IMG/VR virus record: IMGVR_UViG_3300029989_000017
Origin: an uncultured virus (IMG/VR IMGVR_UViG_3300029989_000017)
Lineage: Duplodnaviria; Heunggongvirae; Uroviricota; Caudoviricetes
Direction: 5' to 3' (one strand)
DNA: 20,000 nt
Shown here piece after piece: positions 3,425 to 16,845 of this stretch. Position numbers and translations under genes: made by a program. The notes under the pieces were generated by a model. It had not been told where the DNA came from. It saw nothing but the letters and a program-made list of their open reading frames with translations, and searched no databases. Each line of letters starts with the position of its first letter. Within the stretch, counting starts at the first letter, position 1.

Positions 3425-3515
3425 AAATGCACAAAACGATTTGTGCATTTTACCACTTGTTTTCTTTACTCAATGTAGTAAAATAGTATTATCAGATTTG
3501 AGAGGAGCACACAAC
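3425..3515 (+). promoter_or_regulatory. Repeated promoter cassette P2 (palindrome, -35/-10, RBS)
   Basis: AAATGCACAAA-ACGA-TTTGTGCATTT, TTGTTT(3457)-16 bp-TAAAAT(3479), core TTTACTCAATGTAGTAAAATAG, GAGAGGAG. Confidence 0.85.
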
Positions 3516-3761
3516 ATGAAAAAGTTTTACAAGGTAGAGGGCTCACCGAGAAGAGCCTGCGCGAGAACAACGGACAACCACGAATACCACTGGGCGATCG
3601 CATACATGATAGACGGCGTGGCCGCCTCCTCGAAGGCCTTCAGGGCCGACGAAGCAAGCGCCAACAGCGAGGCCGCTCGGATGAACAGAGACCGCGGCAA
3701 CCACTATAAGGTCCTCCCCGTGATCGAGATCACGGCCGCCGAGTACAAAGCCCTAAAATAA
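3516..3761 (+). CDS. Hypothetical early protein, first gene of the P2 module
   Basis: RBS GAGAGGAG then ATG 3516 (MKKFYKVEG...); the ORF-track extension only reads through the promoter. Confidence 0.8.
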   Translation: MKKFYKVEGSPRRACARTTDNHEYHWAIAYMIDGVAASSKAFRADEASANSEAARMNRDRGNHYKVLPVIEITAAEYKALK

Positions 3762-3814
3762 TCGAGGGCGGCCTTCGGGCCGTAAGACCACAAAAGCGGG
3801 TCCCAAGTCCCGCC
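3757..3814 (+). ncRNA. Twister-like self-cleaving ribozyme, circularly permuted (P1 closed, P5-type order), copy 1
   Basis: GAGGG(3764-68), P1 CGGCC-UUCG-GGCCG, UAA(3783-85), GACC, AC, AAAA, P4 GCGGG/CCCGC with loop UCCCAAGU. Both twister pseudoknots can form (GGG:CCC and AC:GU). P2 is weak (2 Watson-Crick pairs). Confidence 0.7.
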
Positions 3815-3837
3815 GACCTGAGAGGAGAGATCAAGTA

Positions 3838-3972
3838 ATGGACCTCGAAGAAATCCGTTATAAGCTCCGCATCCTGCGACTGCGTAACGGCGTGGACCCC
3901 GACGAGATCGCAGACATACTCGACGCCATTCTAAATTTGATTGAAGGAGACAACCATGAGACAGAACAATGA
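3838..3972 (+). CDS. 44-aa hypothetical protein
   Basis: GAGAGGAG RBS right after the ribozyme; MDLEEIRYKLRILRLRNGVDPDEIADILDAILNLIEGDNHETEQ. Confidence 0.7.
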   Translation: MDLEEIRYKLRILRLRNGVDPDEIADILDAILNLIEGDNHETEQ

Positions 3973-4459: not shown

Positions 4460-4747
4460 ATGCCTAACAAGACGAATAACCCCTGCAACCGTCAGAACTT
4501 TACCCTCGCCATCGAGGTCCTAAAATATCACGCACCATGGAACCGCTACGCGATCGAGGACATCTACCTTGACCTCGGCGCAGGCATGAAGTGGGAGACG
4601 ATCGTCTGCTACCGCTCCGTCAACGACAGCTATCAGATGCTCTGCCCCCGGGACTGGGACATTCTCAACATCGCCGCTACCGCCTCAGAGATCACCCTGC
4701 TCATGGAGAAGATCGTCAGCGACCAAGCCAAGCTGTTGAGGTGCTAG
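4460..4747 (+). CDS. Hypothetical protein
   Basis: AAGGAGG RBS; 95 aa. Confidence 0.8.
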   Translation: MPNKTNNPCNRQNFTLAIEVLKYHAPWNRYAIEDIYLDLGAGMKWETIVCYRSVNDSYQMLCPRDWDILNIAATASEITLLMEKIVSDQAKLLRC

Positions 4748-5600: not shown

Positions 5601-5606
5601 GCGCAG

Positions 5607-5696
5607 AATGCACAAAGAGATTTGTGCATTTTGTATATTGACTTATTTACTCATTGTAGTAAAATAGTATTATCAGATTCGAGAGGAGAACACACC
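5607..5696 (+). promoter_or_regulatory. Repeated promoter cassette P3
   Basis: AATGCACAAA-GAGA-TTTGTGCATT, TTGACT(5638)-16 bp-TAAAAT(5660), GAGAGGAG RBS. Confidence 0.88.
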
Positions 5697-5924
5697 ATGA
5701 ACTACGAGATTGTACACGACTGCGACGATGACGACGGCACACCGACCTGCTACAGCGCCGAGGACGCATACGGCCGCTATTGGTGGATTGACGTAGACTC
5801 GACAGGCTTCACCTGCACGACCAAGCTCGAGGGCGCGCTCTCCGCGCGGCAGACCTGTAAGACCCTGACAAGCGCTAAACGGTGGATAACTGAGAACTGC
5901 AAAAAATATAAGGATAGAGGCTAA
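5697..5924 (+). CDS. Hypothetical early protein
   Basis: ATG 5697 after cassette RBS; MNYEIVHDCDDDDGTPTCYS... Confidence 0.8.
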   Translation: MNYEIVHDCDDDDGTPTCYSAEDAYGRYWWIDVDSTGFTCTTKLEGALSARQTCKTLTSAKRWITENCKKYKDRG

Positions 5925-6419: not shown

Positions 6420-6553
6420 AAACCATCATGGCTCAGCAATACCGCTACTACGTGTTCGTGTGCGCGGGGCAGATCGCCTACTTCAATGACCGCAGGGAGG
6501 CCGAGGCCTTCGCGGCCTTCAATGACTCCGAAGTCTCCGACATGGACATCTAG
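6416..6553 (+). CDS. 45-aa hypothetical protein
   Basis: AAGGAGG RBS, ATGA overlap; MKTIMAQQYRYYVFVCAGQIAYFNDRREAEAF... Confidence 0.7.
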   Translation: MKTIMAQQYRYYVFVCAGQIAYFNDRREAEAFAAFNDSEVSDMDI

Positions 6554-6651
6554 CACAAAAATCTTTGTGCACTTTGTATATTGACTTATTTACTCAATGT
6601 AGTAAAATAGGTACTATGAGAGGGCCAAGAGCCCCGAGAAGGAGAGAACAT
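6553..6651 (+). promoter_or_regulatory. Repeated promoter cassette P4
   Basis: GCACAAA-AATC-TTTGTGC, TTGACT(6581)-16 bp-TAAAAT(6603), AAGGAG RBS. Confidence 0.88.
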
Positions 6652-6888
6652 ATGAAGCAGATCAAGACTAGCACTTTCGCAGGCGGCGACGTCTCAGAGA
6701 CCACGACCATCATCACCGAGGAGGCTTACCTAGAGATCGGGCGCAAGGCCGAACGCCTTAAAGACCACGGCGCTGAGGTCACCTTCGACACACTCGAGGA
6801 CGGTACGACCAAGATCACCCGCATACTCCACGCGATCGAAGCCACAGACAACATCACCATCGTCTACACCTTCAGCGAGGAGGAATAA
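6652..6888 (+). CDS. Hypothetical early protein, first gene of the P4 module
   Basis: ATG 6652 after RBS; 78 aa; stop overlaps the ribozyme. Confidence 0.8.
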   Translation: MKQIKTSTFAGGDVSETTTIITEEAYLEIGRKAERLKDHGAEVTFDTLEDGTTKITRILHAIEATDNITIVYTFSEEE

Positions 6889-6942
6889 TCGAGGGCGGCC
6901 CACAGGGCCGTAAGACCACAAAAGCGGGTCCCAAGTCCCGCC
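6884..6942 (+). ncRNA. Twister-like self-cleaving ribozyme, copy 2
   Basis: Identical to copy 1 except the P1 tip (CGGCCC-ACA-GGGCCG versus CGGCC-UUCG-GGCCG), so variation is confined to a non-catalytic loop. Predicted scissile U/A at 6911/6912. Confidence 0.7.
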
Positions 6943-6961
6943 ACATTGAGAGGAGATCAAC

Positions 6962-7147
6962 ATGAGACAGGTTATACACTACTGGGGCGAGTATTGGGGC
7001 GAAGACGGCGCGCGGCAGATCATGACCCCTGTGTTCATAAACAAAGCGGAGTTTGCGACGTACATGAGAGCCCACAAGGACCCCGCCATCAAGCTAATTT
7101 GGTGCCAAGATAAAACACCCGCGTTTCGCGGAAATTCAAGATTTTAA
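6962..7147 (+). CDS. 61-aa hypothetical protein
   Basis: GAGAGGAG RBS directly after the ribozyme. Confidence 0.75.
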   Translation: MRQVIHYWGEYWGEDGARQIMTPVFINKAEFATYMRAHKDPAIKLIWCQDKTPAFRGNSRF

Positions 7148-8858: not shown

Positions 8859-9090
8859 GAGCGCACTTATCGTCGGCGCGGGCCTTAGTAACCTCTTGGC
8901 GGCCTCTGTGTTGTTTGCTACGGCCGCCAACCCCTACAGCTCTCAGCCCGTGCCAAAAACGCCCCTGAGCGTAGAGAGGGCCCGCTACGGCGGCCGAGTA
9001 GCCTGCCGTGTTTGTGGAGCCTGCGGCGTAACCCTGTACAAAGACGGCGACGACGCCTATATTTGCAAAAAATGTAAGGCCGAAAAATAG
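8848..9090 (+). CDS. Small protein with hydrophobic N-terminus and C-terminal CxxC/CxxC Zn finger
   Basis: GAGG RBS; ALIVGAGLSNLLAASVLFA; CRVCG...ICKKCK. Confidence 0.7.
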   Translation: MSSKSALIVGAGLSNLLAASVLFATAANPYSSQPVPKTPLSVERARYGGRVACRVCGACGVTLYKDGDDAYICKKCKAEK

Positions 9091-9096
9091 GGGGTC

Positions 9097-9316
9097 GGTA
9101 GCACTTGTCGCACTTGTCGCACTTTTTTCAACTCCCCTATACTACGTAGATACGTGTTTAGACCTGTGTTTTCCCCTTAATTCTCTATGTATGTTTTTAT
9201 ATAATAATGTGCTACCAGTGCTACCATACATAGAGGAAGGCCTGCAATCACTCAACTTTTTAGTGTCGCACTTGTGGTCGCACTTGCTAAAAAAGTGCTA
9301 CCAAGTGCGACCACAA
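9097..9316. repeat. Iteron-like repeat cluster, putative replication origin
   Basis: Nine copies of GT(C/A)GCAC(TT) in both orientations around an AT-rich tract; perfect inverted repeats 9183-9193/9225-9235 and 9272-9286/9302-9316; non-coding. Confidence 0.65.
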
Positions 9317-9341
9317 TAAAAACAGAATGGAGCTATTAAAA

Positions 9342-9545
9342 ATGGGACTCAAAGAGCTTAGACTGAAGGGTGGCTTTACCCTCCACAGCCTCGCCGACGC
9401 GTCGGGCGTCAATTTCATGAAAATTCATCAGATCGAGAAGGGTCAGCGCGATATGGAGAACATCACGCTGAAGACCTCGCTGAAACTCGCCAAGGCGCTG
9501 AAGTGTAGACCCGAGGACCTGATCGACAAGGAGCCCAAAGCGTGA
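9342..9545 (+). CDS. XRE-family HTH transcriptional regulator
   Basis: GGAG RBS before ATG 9342; LKELRLKGGFTLHSLADASGVNFMKIHQIEKGQR...TSLKLAKALKCRPEDL. Confidence 0.9.
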   Translation: MGLKELRLKGGFTLHSLADASGVNFMKIHQIEKGQRDMENITLKTSLKLAKALKCRPEDLIDKEPKA

Positions 9546-10271: not shown

Positions 10272-10278
10272 CCAAAGG

Positions 10279-10374
10279 CAAGAGGTAAAATTTGTGCATT
10301 TTACCTCTTGTATTATTTACTCAATGTAGTAAAATAGGTAGTATGAGAGACCCAATTGAGAGGAGATCACCACC
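10279..10374 (+). promoter_or_regulatory. Repeated promoter cassette P5 (variant palindrome)
   Basis: CAAGAGGTAAAAT-TTGTGC-ATTTTACCTCTTG, TTGTAT(10308)-16 bp-TAAAAT(10330), GAGAGGAG RBS. Confidence 0.85.
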
Positions 10375-10894: not shown

Positions 10895-11115
10895 GCACAC
10901 TTAGAGAGGCCATTAAGGCCAACGGTCACGAGAACACGTTTATCACGATCATCATACTACGCGTCAAGGAAAACAAGCCCCTGATCAAGACCACCTACCA
11001 CTCGATGTATGGCCGAGAGCTCAACCCGATGCGCGCTGACGCGCCTGTGCTCTTCGAGTGCAAGCATGAATATATCGGCGGCGACTTTCTGCCCGCCTAC
11101 GGTATTCAGCTATGA
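10891..11115 (+). CDS. Hypothetical protein
   Basis: GGGAGA RBS; ATGA coupling at both ends; 74 aa. Confidence 0.7.
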   Translation: MSTLREAIKANGHENTFITIIILRVKENKPLIKTTYHSMYGRELNPMRADAPVLFECKHEYIGGDFLPAYGIQL

Positions 11116-11927
11116 TCGGCGCTATCATCGGAGACATCGTCGGCTCACGCTTCGAGTTTGACAACCACAGGAGCAAGAACTTCAAGCTGTTCGCCAAGAC
11201 CTGCTACTTCACCGACGACACGGTCATGACGCTCGCAGTCGCAAAGGCGCTCATGGCCGCCACGCGCTACGGGGCTAACATCGGCGAAGAGACCGTGAAG
11301 TGGATGCAGACGCTCGGCCGCAAGTATCCTAATCGCGGCTACGGCAGGGCGTTCAAAGAGTGGCTCCAAGCGGCAAAGCCCGAGCCCTACAACAGCTTCG
11401 GCAACGGCGCGGCCATGCGCGTCAGCCCCGCAGGAGAGGCCGCGCATGATCGTGGCGGCGCTGTTCGATTATCCGCGTCCGTAACAAAAGTCACACACGA
11501 CCACCCCGAGGGGCTGAAGGGCGCGGAGGCCGTGGCCGTGGCCATATGGCTCGCACGTTGGCGCAGTGAGACCAAGGGCCTAAGGCTGAGGCGGCGCTTC
11601 ACAAAAGAGGAGCTCCGCAAGCGGCTCAGCGAATATTATGACCTCAACTTCACCATCGACGAGATCAGGCCCACGTACAAATTCAACGAGACTTGTCAGG
11701 AGACCGTGCCGCAGGCGATCGAGGCCTTCCTCGAGTCCACATCATTCGAGGACGCCATACGTATCGCCATATCGGTCGGAGGCGACAGCGATACCCTAGC
11801 CGCGATCACAGGCTCGATCGCCGAGGCATACTACGGCGTGCGCGATGACTTCAAGGTCAAGGCCCTGTCCTATTTAGACCCCTACCTGCGCGACATCTAC
11901 TACGAATGGGAGGCGTTTGTGAAATGA
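11112..11927 (+). CDS. ADP-ribosylglycohydrolase (DraG/ARH family)
   Basis: GAIIGDIVGSRFEF, FTDDT, SFGNGAAMR, THDHPEG and GGDSDT motifs all present, including the metal-binding acidic residues. Confidence 0.95.
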   Translation: MIGAIIGDIVGSRFEFDNHRSKNFKLFAKTCYFTDDTVMTLAVAKALMAATRYGANIGEETVKWMQTLGRKYPNRGYGRAFKEWLQAAKPEPYNSFGNGAAMRVSPAGEAAHDRGGAVRLSASVTKVTHDHPEGLKGAEAVAVAIWLARWRSETKGLRLRRRFTKEELRKRLSEYYDLNFTIDEIRPTYKFNETCQETVPQAIEAFLESTSFEDAIRIAISVGGDSDTLAAITGSIAEAYYGVRDDFKVKALSYLDPYLRDIYYEWEAFVK

Positions 11928-12097: not shown

Positions 12098-12303
12098 TAC
12101 GCAAGTGTAAACACTGTGATGCCGCCGCCTACGTTCGCAAAGAGCGACAGTCACCTTCCCGGGGGCGCGGCAACGGATACTATCACCCGATACACAGTTT
12201 CTACGTGTGCTGTCCGCTCTGCTACCAGATGAGCACATGGTACAACTCCTCGCGCGCTCTAGCTATCGCGGACTGGAATAGAAAGCAAAAAATGCACAAT
12301 TAA
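12094..12303 (+). CDS. Lar-like (restriction alleviation family) Zn-binding protein
   Basis: GAGGAG RBS, GTGA overlap; CKHC...FYVCCPLC...ALAIADWNRK matches the Lar-family pattern CxxC...VxCxxC...AIxxWNxR. Confidence 0.7.
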   Translation: MIRKCKHCDAAAYVRKERQSPSRGRGNGYYHPIHSFYVCCPLCYQMSTWYNSSRALAIADWNRKQKMHN

Positions 12304-12388
12304 TTTTGTGCATTTTGCCTATTGACTTCTTTACTCAATGTAGTAAAATAGGTACTATGAGAGACCCACTACGAGAGGAGCAAACGCC
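12289..12388 (+). promoter_or_regulatory. Repeated promoter cassette P6
   Basis: AAAATGCACAA-TTAATT-TTGTGCATTTT, TTGACT(12322)-16 bp-TAAAAT(12344), GAGAGGAG RBS. Confidence 0.88.
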
Positions 12389-13216: not shown

Positions 13217-13217
13217 T

Positions 13218-13255
13218 AAAAAGCCCCTCAACCAAACGGCTGAGGGGCTTTTCTT
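13218..13255. terminator. Bidirectional intrinsic terminator between convergent early and late operons
   Basis: AAAAGCCCCTCA / TGAGGGGCTTTT stem with A and T tails on either side. Confidence 0.9.
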
Positions 13256-15138: not shown

Positions 15139-16845
15139 TCACCTCTCGTATGCGAAGACACCCGCGAGCTCCACGTCCGACGTGAAGACCCCCGAGGCCT
15201 CGATCTGGTTTATAAACTCACCCGAGAGCTCAACCCCCGAAGTGAAGACGCCGTCTCCGCCGAGCTCGTACACGAAGTCAGCATAAAGCTGTATGTCGGC
15301 GTTCTCGAACGCGACGATCTTGCGCCCCTGAGCCTCTAGGCGGCCCTCTGCGAGAAGATAAGCCCTGCCGACGTGTTTTGCTACACCCTCGGCTATAAGC
15401 GCGCCTAGGCCGCCGAGGGCGGCCGCGCCGACCACGATATAGACTGCGGAGCCTGAGAGCGCGCCGTCGCCTGATAACGTAGCTGTCGCCGCAAGGACCC
15501 GCGTACCGTGGGCCGCAACGGTCTCCGAGCCCGCGAGCACCGCACCGCCATGTATGACGCGAGAGCCTGTCGCTGTGAGCGTGCTCGCGCCGCTGAGCAC
15601 TACGGACGAATGCGAGGGCGCTATGCCCGCCGCCGATAACGTGCTTGCGCCGCTGAGCTGAGCTGAGCTGTTCGTTTTGCGAAGGCCCGAGGCCGTCAGC
15701 CCGCCTGCGCCCGTGAAGACCTTAGCACCGACCTTGACGACGGTGCCCGCGGCCGACATCGTACTCGTACCTGCAAGGGCCGCCGAGCTGAGTCGCACAC
15801 GTTTGCCATTCGCTGTGATCAAGCCTGCGCCCGTGAGATGCGCCGAGACGTTTGAGGCAGGCACCACTCCTGAGGCCGTCAGCGCGCCTGTGCCTGCGAG
15901 AGCCGCCGAGCCTATCTTTACTCGCGTGCCTGCGGCAACGAACGCTCCTGCGCCCGAGAGGGCCACAGAGCTCTTCAGAATGCGTTTGCCCGCGGCAGTG
16001 ATCGCACTCGTACCTGTCAGGGACACCGAGCCTGCTGTTTTGCGCTTGCCTGTGGCCGAGACTGCGCTCGTACCTGTCAAGGCCACTGCGCCGATTTCGA
16101 CGCGCTTTCCCGTCGCTGTATACGTGCTCGTTCCTGCGAGAGCCGCCGAGCCTTTGAATATCTGCTTGCCTGTGGCCGCTAACGTGCTTGCGCCAGTTAG
16201 CGCCGAGGAGCCGAGCCTTACACGCACGCCCGAGGCCGTGATCGTGCTTGAACCCGAGAGGGCCGCCGAGCTGTTCGTCTTGCGAAGACCTGTTGCTATG
16301 ACCGAGCTCGTACCCGCGAGGGCCGCCGAGCCCTTCTGAATGCGTTTGCCTAGGGCTGTGATCGCGCCTGCGCCCGCCAGAGCGGCCGCACCGAGCTCTA
16401 TGCGTTTACCCGAGGCGGTGATGGCGCTCGTGCCTGCGAAGGCCACAGCGCTCTTCAGGATACGTTTACCCGCCGCTGTGGCTGTGCTCGTACCCGTCAG
16501 GGAGACAGAGCCCGACTTCTTGATTCCACCGATGGCCGACAACGTAGACGTGCCCGCGAGGTCCGCGTCTCCGAACTTTACAGGGTCGCCTTGGCCCGCC
16601 ATGAGCTGAGCCCACGTCAGGCCGCCAATCTGCATCCACGAGTCGCCGTCTAAGACGGTCCATGTACGTGGGTTGACAACGCCGACCGCGGTGACGGCGC
16701 TCGTGCCTGCGAGAGCCGCGGAGCCATCCTGCATTGGGGCGTAGGCGTCACGCTCTAGGGCTGTTGCAACGTCGTCGACGGGAAAGTGCTGAGTGATCGC
16801 CGCCCTCGACAGTAGTCTAGCGCGGCCGAGAAACCCACCTTGCAT
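15139..16845 (-). CDS. Gly/Ala/Ser/Thr-rich 20-aa repeat virion protein (fibre-like)
   Basis: AAGGAG RBS; many tandem units like KGSAALAGTSSVIATGLRKT; located in the late operon. Confidence 0.8.
   Translation of the reverse strand: MQGGFLGRARLLSRAAITQHFPVDDVATALERDAYAPMQDGSAALAGTSAVTAVGVVNPRTWTVLDGDSWMQIGGLTWAQLMAGQGDPVKFGDADLAGTSTLSAIGGIKKSGSVSLTGTSTATAAGKRILKSAVAFAGTSAITASGKRIELGAAALAGAGAITALGKRIQKGSAALAGTSSVIATGLRKTNSSAALSGSSTITASGVRVRLGSSALTGASTLAATGKQIFKGSAALAGTSTYTATGKRVEIGAVALTGTSAVSATGKRKTAGSVSLTGTSAITAAGKRILKSSVALSGAGAFVAAGTRVKIGSAALAGTGALTASGVVPASNVSAHLTGAGLITANGKRVRLSSAALAGTSTMSAAGTVVKVGAKVFTGAGGLTASGLRKTNSSAQLSGASTLSAAGIAPSHSSVVLSGASTLTATGSRVIHGGAVLAGSETVAAHGTRVLAATATLSGDGALSGSAVYIVVGAAALGGLGALIAEGVAKHVGRAYLLAEGRLEAQGRKIVAFENADIQLYADFVYELGGDGVFTSGVELSGEFINQIEASGVFTSDVELAGVFAYER

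What the first reader, a model, noticed from the sequence alone, without database searches (positions are those of the whole stretch)
3757..3814. Circularly permuted twister-like ribozyme overlapping the stop codon of the first gene of a promoter module (copy 1)
Seen: GAGGG-[CGGCC UUCG GGCCG]-UAA-GACC-AC-AAAA-[GCGGG UCCCAAGU CCCGC], lying between a stop codon and the next RBS. Known: the twister core is P1-UAA-P2-T2...P4 loop UCCCAAGC...P2-GAGGG-P1. Here P1 is closed by a UUCG loop (P5-type order), T1 is GGG:CCC, and T2 is AC:GU instead of GC:GC. Unusual points: P2 has only two Watson-Crick pairs (AAUC/GACC), no clear P5 is visible, GACC could instead pair with GGUC in P4/L4, and the upstream UAA stop (3759-3761) lies in the P2 strand. 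Inference: a minimal variant twister cleaving at 3783/3784, possibly gated by the terminating ribosome.
Basis: partly seen in the sequence, partly recalled or inferred. Interest (0 to 1): 0.85.

Follow-up and report, generated by a model that had tools for sequence, protein, structure and literature searches.

The report
Phage twister ribozyme with weakened stem
A short RNA of the known self-cutting "twister" family sits between two genes of a bacterial virus, as such RNAs commonly do, but one of its stems is half broken, so it probably cuts the message slowly and may not cut it at all.

Summary
The element is real: a type-P5 twister ribozyme homologue at 3760-3813, with a second copy at 6887-6941. 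Rfam Twister-P5 scores them 34.5 and 33.7 bits (E<0.001), below the 37.6 cut-off. Both catalytic residues, P1, P4, T1 and T2 are intact.

P5 is absent by definition, T2 AC:GU is common, and 43 of 64 other P5 twisters have a stop codon at the same edge (chance 2.5). This scan has already noted that layout in other phage genomes.

The one real oddity is P2: two Watson-Crick pairs plus two C·A mismatches, against 3-4 pairs in all 66 others. All 9 others with the stop at this offset use TAG, whose G pairs in P2; here TAA breaks that pair. The matching double mutant of the rice twister keeps only 0.10 relative activity (PMC5113685 supplement). Natural type-P1 twisters, however, tolerate P2 defects (PMC11662667).

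Best reading (0.58): a slowed ribozyme cutting the operon mRNA at 3783/3784. Rivals: dead relic (0.28), ribosome-gated switch (0.10). Cleavage is untested.

The parts
3425..3492 (+). Repeated promoter module: AT-rich palindrome (TGCACAAA..TTTGTGCA) plus a sigma70-type promoter-like site, upstream of gene 1
   Evidence: Repeat families D4/D5, five copies at 3437, 5618, 6561, 10288, 12302; promoter-like site 3465-3492 at 9 of 12 consensus matches, sister copies at 10 of 12. Function inferred.
3516..3761 (+). Gene 1 of the module, 81 aa, unknown function; its TAA stop (3759-3761) overlaps the 5' strand of P2
   Evidence: no PHROGs family; only a sub-threshold Pfam DUF7568 hit
3734..3740 (+). Coding-sequence stretch that can pair with 3767-3773 (T1/P1 strand) in naked RNA; copy 1 only
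   Evidence: ViennaRNA: P1 probability falls to 0.39-0.55 with 60-200 nt of upstream RNA, versus 0.97 for the minimal element; copy 2 stays at 0.99-1.00
3760..3763 (+). P2 5' strand (AAUC); C3763-G3786 and U3762-A3787 pair, A3761·C3788 and A3760·C3789 do not
   Evidence: same defect in copy 2
3764..3768 (+). L1 strand GAGGG: general base G3764, A3765, T1 strand G3766-G3768 (pairs with C3804-C3802)
   Evidence: Alignment to RF02684; pairs listed; roles by homology to the rice numbering G45-G49 (PMC5113685, PMC5408937)
3769..3782 (+). P1 hairpin, 5 G-C pairs closed by a cUUCGg loop (6 pairs with an ACA loop in copy 2)
3783..3785 (+). UAA junction; predicted cleavage between U3783 and A3784 (general acid A3784)
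   Evidence: By homology (PMC5408937); cleavage not tested
3786..3795 (+). P2 3' strand GACC (3786-3789), T2 strand AC (3790-3791, pairs with U3808 and G3807), linker AAAA (3792-3795)
   Evidence: a run of four A after T2 is seen in 0 of 66 others, longest run 2
3796..3813 (+). P4 (5 G-C pairs, 3796-3800 with 3809-3813) and loop L4 UCCCAAGU carrying the T1 and T2 partners
3820..3972 (+). Ribosome-binding site (GAGGAG 3822-3827) and gene 2 (3838-3972, 44 aa, unknown function)
   Evidence: no PHROGs or Pfam family
6887..6941 (+). Copy 2 of the twister, same P2 defect, predicted cut 6911/6912; follows the TAA (6886-6888) of gene 6652-6888, precedes RBS 6950-6955 and gene 6962-7147

Best explanation
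A type-P5 twister ribozyme with a weakened P2 stem, used as an mRNA processing site between the first and second gene of a phage operon. SHOWN: fold homology, intact catalytic G and A, P1, P4, both pseudoknots, position between stop codon and next RBS, two copies. INFERRED: the RNA folds T1 and T2 and cuts itself at U3783/A3784, probably much more slowly than a canonical twister. The cut leaves gene 1 mRNA ending in the P1 hairpin with a 2',3'-cyclic phosphate. It also leaves a downstream mRNA with a 5'-OH, a 54-nt leader and the P4 hairpin ahead of the RBS, so the two parts can decay and be translated separately. INFERRED origin of the defect: in this layout the stop codon supplies P2 letters; a TAG stop would give a third pair, and TAA does not.
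For: Rfam and own-model hits. All invariant positions of the 66-sequence alignment are kept. Both remaining P2 pairs are double changes from the family's commonest pairs: first pair G-C in 0 of 66 and second pair A-U in 1 of 66; two strict pairs arise in 15 of 174 chance matches. The two copies differ only in the P1 loop, which stays a hairpin, and in the spacer after P4. Layout is the family norm: 43 of 64 versus 7 of 170 pattern-only matches, null mean 2.5; RBS and start downstream in 53 of 66 versus 29 of 174. 9 of 9 others at this stop offset use TAG with the G paired. Rice twister swaps matching ours at P2 pair 1 (C9G/G44C, 1.04) and T2 (G13A/C31U, 0.89) are tolerated. In natural type-P1 twisters, cleavage depended little on the number of P2 imperfections (PMC11662667 section 32). 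Processing of polycistronic phage mRNA is the published suggestion (PMC6765202; shown in vitro and in E. coli for clustered hammerheads, PMC3088659).
Against: Rice double mutant U12C/G42A, the same tandem C·A in P2, has relative activity 0.10 after 2 h, near the level of dead mutants (A7U 0.07); either single change combined with a weakened T2 (C31U) gives 0.09-0.11. No other natural P5 twister with 2 pairs among 66, so the third pair is under selection elsewhere. Both copies fall below Rfam's cut-off. Nearest-neighbour folding gives P2's first pair a probability of at most 0.25, and copy 1 has an upstream competitor (pseudoknots are not modelled). The differences between the copies form only two clusters, so evidence of selection since duplication is modest. 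The tolerance data are for type-P1 RNAs and I could not read their P2 table.
Confidence: 0.58

Rival explanations
1. Dead or nearly dead relic. The element no longer cleaves at a useful rate and persists as a repeated stop-hairpin-hairpin-RBS junction, kept alike by duplication or gene conversion and serving as a recombination joint for swapping small genes.
For: Rice U12C/G42A activity 0.10; 0 of 66 natural relatives with this defect. Identity between the copies starts 2 nt before the stop and ends after the RBS, as for a copied cassette. The promoter modules of the same region are repeated too.
Against: Every catalytic and pseudoknot position is intact in both copies, while the P1 loop and spacer have changed. 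The two remaining P2 pairs are compensatory forms. P1 and P4 are all G-C.
Confidence: 0.28
2. Translation-gated switch. A ribosome finishing gene 1 covers the P2 strand, G3764 and part of T1, and the weak P2 slows refolding, so cleavage happens mainly when gene 1 is poorly translated. In copy 1 a ribosome could instead help by stripping the upstream competitor.
For: Geometry: the stop ends 2 nt before G3764, within the stretch a terminating ribosome covers (footprint size recalled, from no call). Stop codons cluster tightly at this edge in 43 of 64 relatives.
Against: The same overlap is the family norm with strong P2, and offsets vary from -5 to +2, so it needs no special explanation here. 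Compact packing or a cassette that carries its own stop explains it. The upstream competitor exists in copy 1 only. No expression data.
Confidence: 0.1
3. Not a ribozyme in function but a terminator for antisense transcription: on the minus strand P4 followed by the complement of AAAA reads as hairpin plus U-run.
For: Both copies are listed as minus-strand terminator-like sites. The AAAA run is absent from 66 relatives. The late genes are transcribed towards this region on the minus strand.
Against: The U-run is short and interrupted. The scan found 21 such sites against 10.6 expected by chance. A terminator does not need GAGGG, UAA, T1 or T2. It could at most be a side function.
Confidence: 0.04

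Closest known systems
Type-P5 twister ribozyme (Rfam RF02684, clan CL00120; class of Roth et al. 2014, not read; reviewed in PMC5408937)
   Same: Order of elements, catalytic G and A, P1, P4, T1, T2, L4 sequence, 4-nt spacing of the P2 strand, phage intergenic position just behind a stop codon
   Different: P2 has 2 Watson-Crick pairs and 2 C·A mismatches instead of 3-4 pairs; AAAA linker; 34.5/33.7 bits, where 36 of 38 hits in 20 related loci pass 37.6
Rice twister Osa-1-4 double mutant U12C/G42A (PMC5113685 supplement)
   Same: Same two C·A mismatches at P2 pairs 3 and 4
   Different: Type P1, laboratory mutant, weaker P4; there the P2 strand is tied to P4 by a loop that type P5 lacks, so the 0.10 value need not carry over
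Clustered hammerhead ribozymes flanking prophage genes (PMC3088659)
   Same: Several self-cleaving RNAs between small phage genes; proposed processing of polycistronic mRNA
   Different: Different ribozyme class; those were shown active, this one is untested

Membership tests
Twister, type P5 (RF02684) | Rfam gathering score 37.6 bits | tested here: not met
   34.5 and 33.7 bits, full model length, E=0.00059 and 0.00096
Twister, type P5 (RF02684) | RNA ends lie at P5; P1 closed by a loop | tested here: met
   Order P2-GAGGG-P1-UAA-P2-T2-P4
Twister, type P5 (RF02684) | Stems P1 and P4 | tested here: met
   5 and 5 G-C pairs in copy 1, 6 and 5 in copy 2
Twister, type P5 (RF02684) | Stem P2 of four Watson-Crick pairs (PMC5408937) | tested here: not met
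   Two pairs plus two C·A mismatches in both copies; 52 of 66 others have 4, 14 have 3, none fewer
Twister, type P5 (RF02684) | Pseudoknots T1 (3 pairs plus A·A) and T2 (2 pairs) | tested here: met
   G3766-3768 with C3804-3802; A3790-U3808, C3791-G3807. Complementarity only; the fold itself was not measured.
Twister, type P5 (RF02684) | Conserved active-site residues (A+1, A+2, general-base G, L4 U, A, A, G) | tested here: met
   All match the Rfam and own-model consensus
Twister, type P5 (RF02684) | Site-specific self-cleavage at U/A | not testable with these tools
   Needs a bench assay or end-mapped RNA reads
Twister types P1 and P3, other Rfam ribozymes | Match to their models | tested here: inconclusive
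   No such hit listed to E=10, but overlapping hits within one clan are reduced to the best; the element order fits P5 only

The most novel reading that the evidence does not exclude
A naturally detuned twister: the stop codon is a working strand of the ribozyme, and choosing TAA over TAG sets its speed, turning a constitutive cutter into one that fires only when the upstream gene is not being translated. More widely, the tight stop-codon placement of phage P5 twisters would make them translation-sensing mRNA processing sites.
Probability: 0.1. Interest if true: 0.7.

Novelty: new variant of a known kind. Interest (0 to 1): 0.3.

Why it matters
The purpose of self-cleaving ribozymes between phage genes is still open (PMC6765202). 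This copy does not answer it, but it offers a cheap test case. It is the weakest P2 among the P5 twisters examined, it is one letter from the common TAG form, and it occurs twice in one phage. An assay would show how little P2 a type-P5 twister needs, where a laboratory scan and a survey of natural type-P1 RNAs disagree. It would also show whether the overlapping stop codon lets translation control cleavage. As an annotation, it is one more phage twister in a layout seen many times.

Tried and rejected
No whole genome is held for this window, so copies outside the 20 kb were not searched. RNA runs: no RNA holder listed; this is no evidence either way.

Relatives of the variant: the four metagenome loci holding it (L036, L042, L043, L062) are the same phage, 99.9-100% identical to the window, so they are not independent. 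A variant-specific viral scan gave 2 matches without the stems. Flanking proteins 6962-7144 and 4460-4744 found no relatives in viral contigs. Annotated phages hold only short matches to single genes. A promoter-motif scan returned only the same phage.

Third copy in the window: none (next score 8.6 bits). Hammerhead in the window: none in Rfam.

Rejected readings: GACC:GGUC as a competing fold; alternative P2/T2 registers (by eye, none gives more pairs); T2 AC:GU, missing P5 and stop overlap as novelties.

Literature: searches found no paper on stop codons overlapping P5 twisters. Felletti et al. 2017 on ribozymes in bacterial 3' UTRs (PMC5785228) is not held and may cover this. The supplement of PMC11662667, with the P2 tables, could not be read.

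Full report
OBSERVATION. The window is part of a phage genome. It holds a DUF2800 gene at the left end, a run of small unknown genes on the + strand behind five repeated promoter modules, and lysis and structural genes on the - strand. The described sequence is at the stated place. Rfam's Twister-P5 model matches 3761-3812 (34.5 bits, E=0.00059) and 6888-6940 (33.7 bits) over its full length, below the 37.6 cut-off. The core pattern occurs twice in the window and never in 200 shuffles. A covariance model built from 66 other P5 twisters scores the copies 40.7 and 43.1 bits; the next hit scores 8.6.

ANATOMY. P1: 3769-3773 with 3778-3782, cUUCGg loop. P4: 3796-3800 with 3809-3813. T1: G3766-3768 with C3804-3802. 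T2: A3790-U3808 and C3791-G3807. General base G3764; predicted cut U3783/A3784. P2: C3763-G3786 and U3762-A3787, then two A·C mismatches. Copy 2 has the same core; the copies differ only in the P1 loop (one more pair) and in the spacer after P4, and their identity begins 2 nt before the stop codon. Each copy follows the first gene of a promoter module; the other three modules have none.

COMPARISON SET. They gave 242 distinct matches. 68 passed a filter on P1 and P4 only; 2 of these are this phage's copies. The filter is strict and dropped some true twisters (for example L019). In 20 of these loci, 36 of 38 Rfam hits pass the cut-off, often several per locus. On the alignment of the 66, all four P2 pairs covary and 94.5% of cells pair, against 67.0% in shuffles (P1 and P4 were selected for, P2 was not).

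WHAT IS ORDINARY. (a) No P5: type P5 is defined by the ends lying there (PMC5408937). (b) T2 A-U: 34 of 66, inflated because required it; the rice G13A/C31U double mutant keeps 0.89 activity. (c) Stop overlap: a stop of an ORF of at least 40 codons ends at -5 to +2 from the catalytic G in 43 of 64 twisters (2 dropped for short flanks). It does so in 7 of 170 pattern-only matches (4 dropped), and random positions give a mean of 2.5 and a maximum of 9 in 1000 draws. The 64 fall into 63 clusters by upstream sequence, 42 with the stop; in 26 of 64 the stop lies inside P2 or beyond. Among neighbours found by the model rather than the main filter the figure is 14 of 25 (10 of 35 dropped). (d) GACC:GGUC is worth -3.9 kcal/mol against -9.5 for P4. 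Earlier notes of this scan describe the same layout in other phages.

WHAT IS UNUSUAL. P2 has 4 pairs in 52 of 66 others, 3 in 14, and 2 in none. All 9 others whose stop ends at the same offset (-2) use TAG, and its G makes P2 pair 3; here the stop is TAA. A single G-to-A change that keeps the stop would therefore explain the defect (inference; no ancestor was found). The two surviving pairs are rare forms in the family (G-C first pair 0 of 66, A-U second pair 1 of 66), which suggests P2 is still kept as a helix; 15 of 174 chance matches show two strict pairs. I found no independent carrier of the variant.

DOES IT CUT? Evidence is split. In the rice twister scan (PMC5113685; values counted by hand from supplement rows and checked in both mirror rows for U12C/G42A and G13A/C31U) the single changes G42A (0.84) and U12C (0.66) are tolerated. 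Together, giving the same two C·A mismatches, they leave 0.10 after 2 h, close to dead mutants (A7U 0.07). Either one with C31U gives 0.09-0.11. The paper notes that a moderate drop in this value means a much larger drop in rate. Against that, a survey of natural twisters found little dependence of cleavage on the number, place or kind of P2 imperfections (PMC11662667 section 32), but it covered type P1 only and its tables were unreadable. Here P1 and P4 are all G-C and type P5 lacks the loop tying P2 to P4. Naked copy 1 RNA can also misfold with 3734-3740; copy 2 does not. I put activity, probably slowed, at about two in three.

MECHANISM. Inferred by homology: T1 and T2 dock, G3764 and A3784 act as base and acid, and the mRNA is cut 22 nt after the stop. 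Gene 1 mRNA then ends in the P1 hairpin with a cyclic phosphate, and the downstream mRNA starts with a 5'-OH, 54 nt before the next start, with P4 ahead of the RBS. This would uncouple the stability and translation of gene 1 from the rest. Such processing is the published suggestion for bacterial twisters and hammerheads near phage genes, with the purpose still open (PMC6765202); clustered prophage hammerheads were shown to cut (PMC3088659). A terminating ribosome would cover P2 and G3764 (footprint recalled), so gating is possible, but it applies to most of the family and nothing here tests it.

VERDICT. It works like, and descends from, a type-P5 twister. Two membership features fail (four-pair P2, Rfam cut-off), so I file it as a P2-defective variant. 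Interest 0.3.

PAPERS SEEN. PMC5113685: whole text and passages of supplement rows. PMC11662667: abstract, outline, section 32, passages; supplement not readable. PMC5408937, PMC6765202, PMC3088659, PMC5737381, PMC9901934: passages. Roth 2014 and Felletti 2017: reference entries only. Searches for a printed account of the stop overlap found none, but Felletti 2017 was unavailable and may hold one.

Noticed in passing
loci (e.g. L052, L057, L058, L093, L099): P5 twisters in phage-like contigs sit hard against the upstream stop codon (43 of 64); in 6 the TAG is wholly inside the P2 strand (GTAG). I found no paper stating this in three searches.
   Followed up: partly
window 3425-3520, 5603-5701, 6550-6644, 10278-10354, 12289-12385 (partial copy near 1573): Repeated promoter module: palindrome TGCACAAA..TTTGTGCA just upstream of TTGACT-16-TAAAAT; likely operator plus early promoter. 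A Cro/C1-type HTH gene lies at 9327-9545 as a candidate binder.
   Followed up: partly
window 3795-3814 and 6923-6942, minus strand: P4 plus the AAAA linker reads as a terminator-like hairpin with U-run on the opposite strand.
   Followed up: partly
window 11112-11927: ADP-ribosylglycohydrolase gene (PF03747, E=5e-42) among the small early genes; possibly counters host ADP-ribosylation defence.
   Followed up: no
window 13217-13250: Hairpin flanked by A-run and T-run between the + strand early genes and the - strand lysis genes: likely two-way terminator; it explains the weak rimP and Thr_leader Rfam hits.
   Followed up: no
window 9057-9270: Non-coding AT-rich stretch with repeated GTCGCACTT / GTGCTACC words in both orientations (seen in L103, identical to the window); may be a replication origin or operator array.
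   Followed up: no
window 15139-16845 (minus): 568-aa Ala/Gly/Thr-rich protein with 20-residue repeats (60-nt DNA period), likely structural.
   Followed up: no
L004, L066, L079, L084, L093, L116, L137: Three or more P5 twisters within 1.2-2.1 kb, apparently one per gene junction; several have P2 shortened to three pairs with a 3-nt strand.
   Followed up: partly
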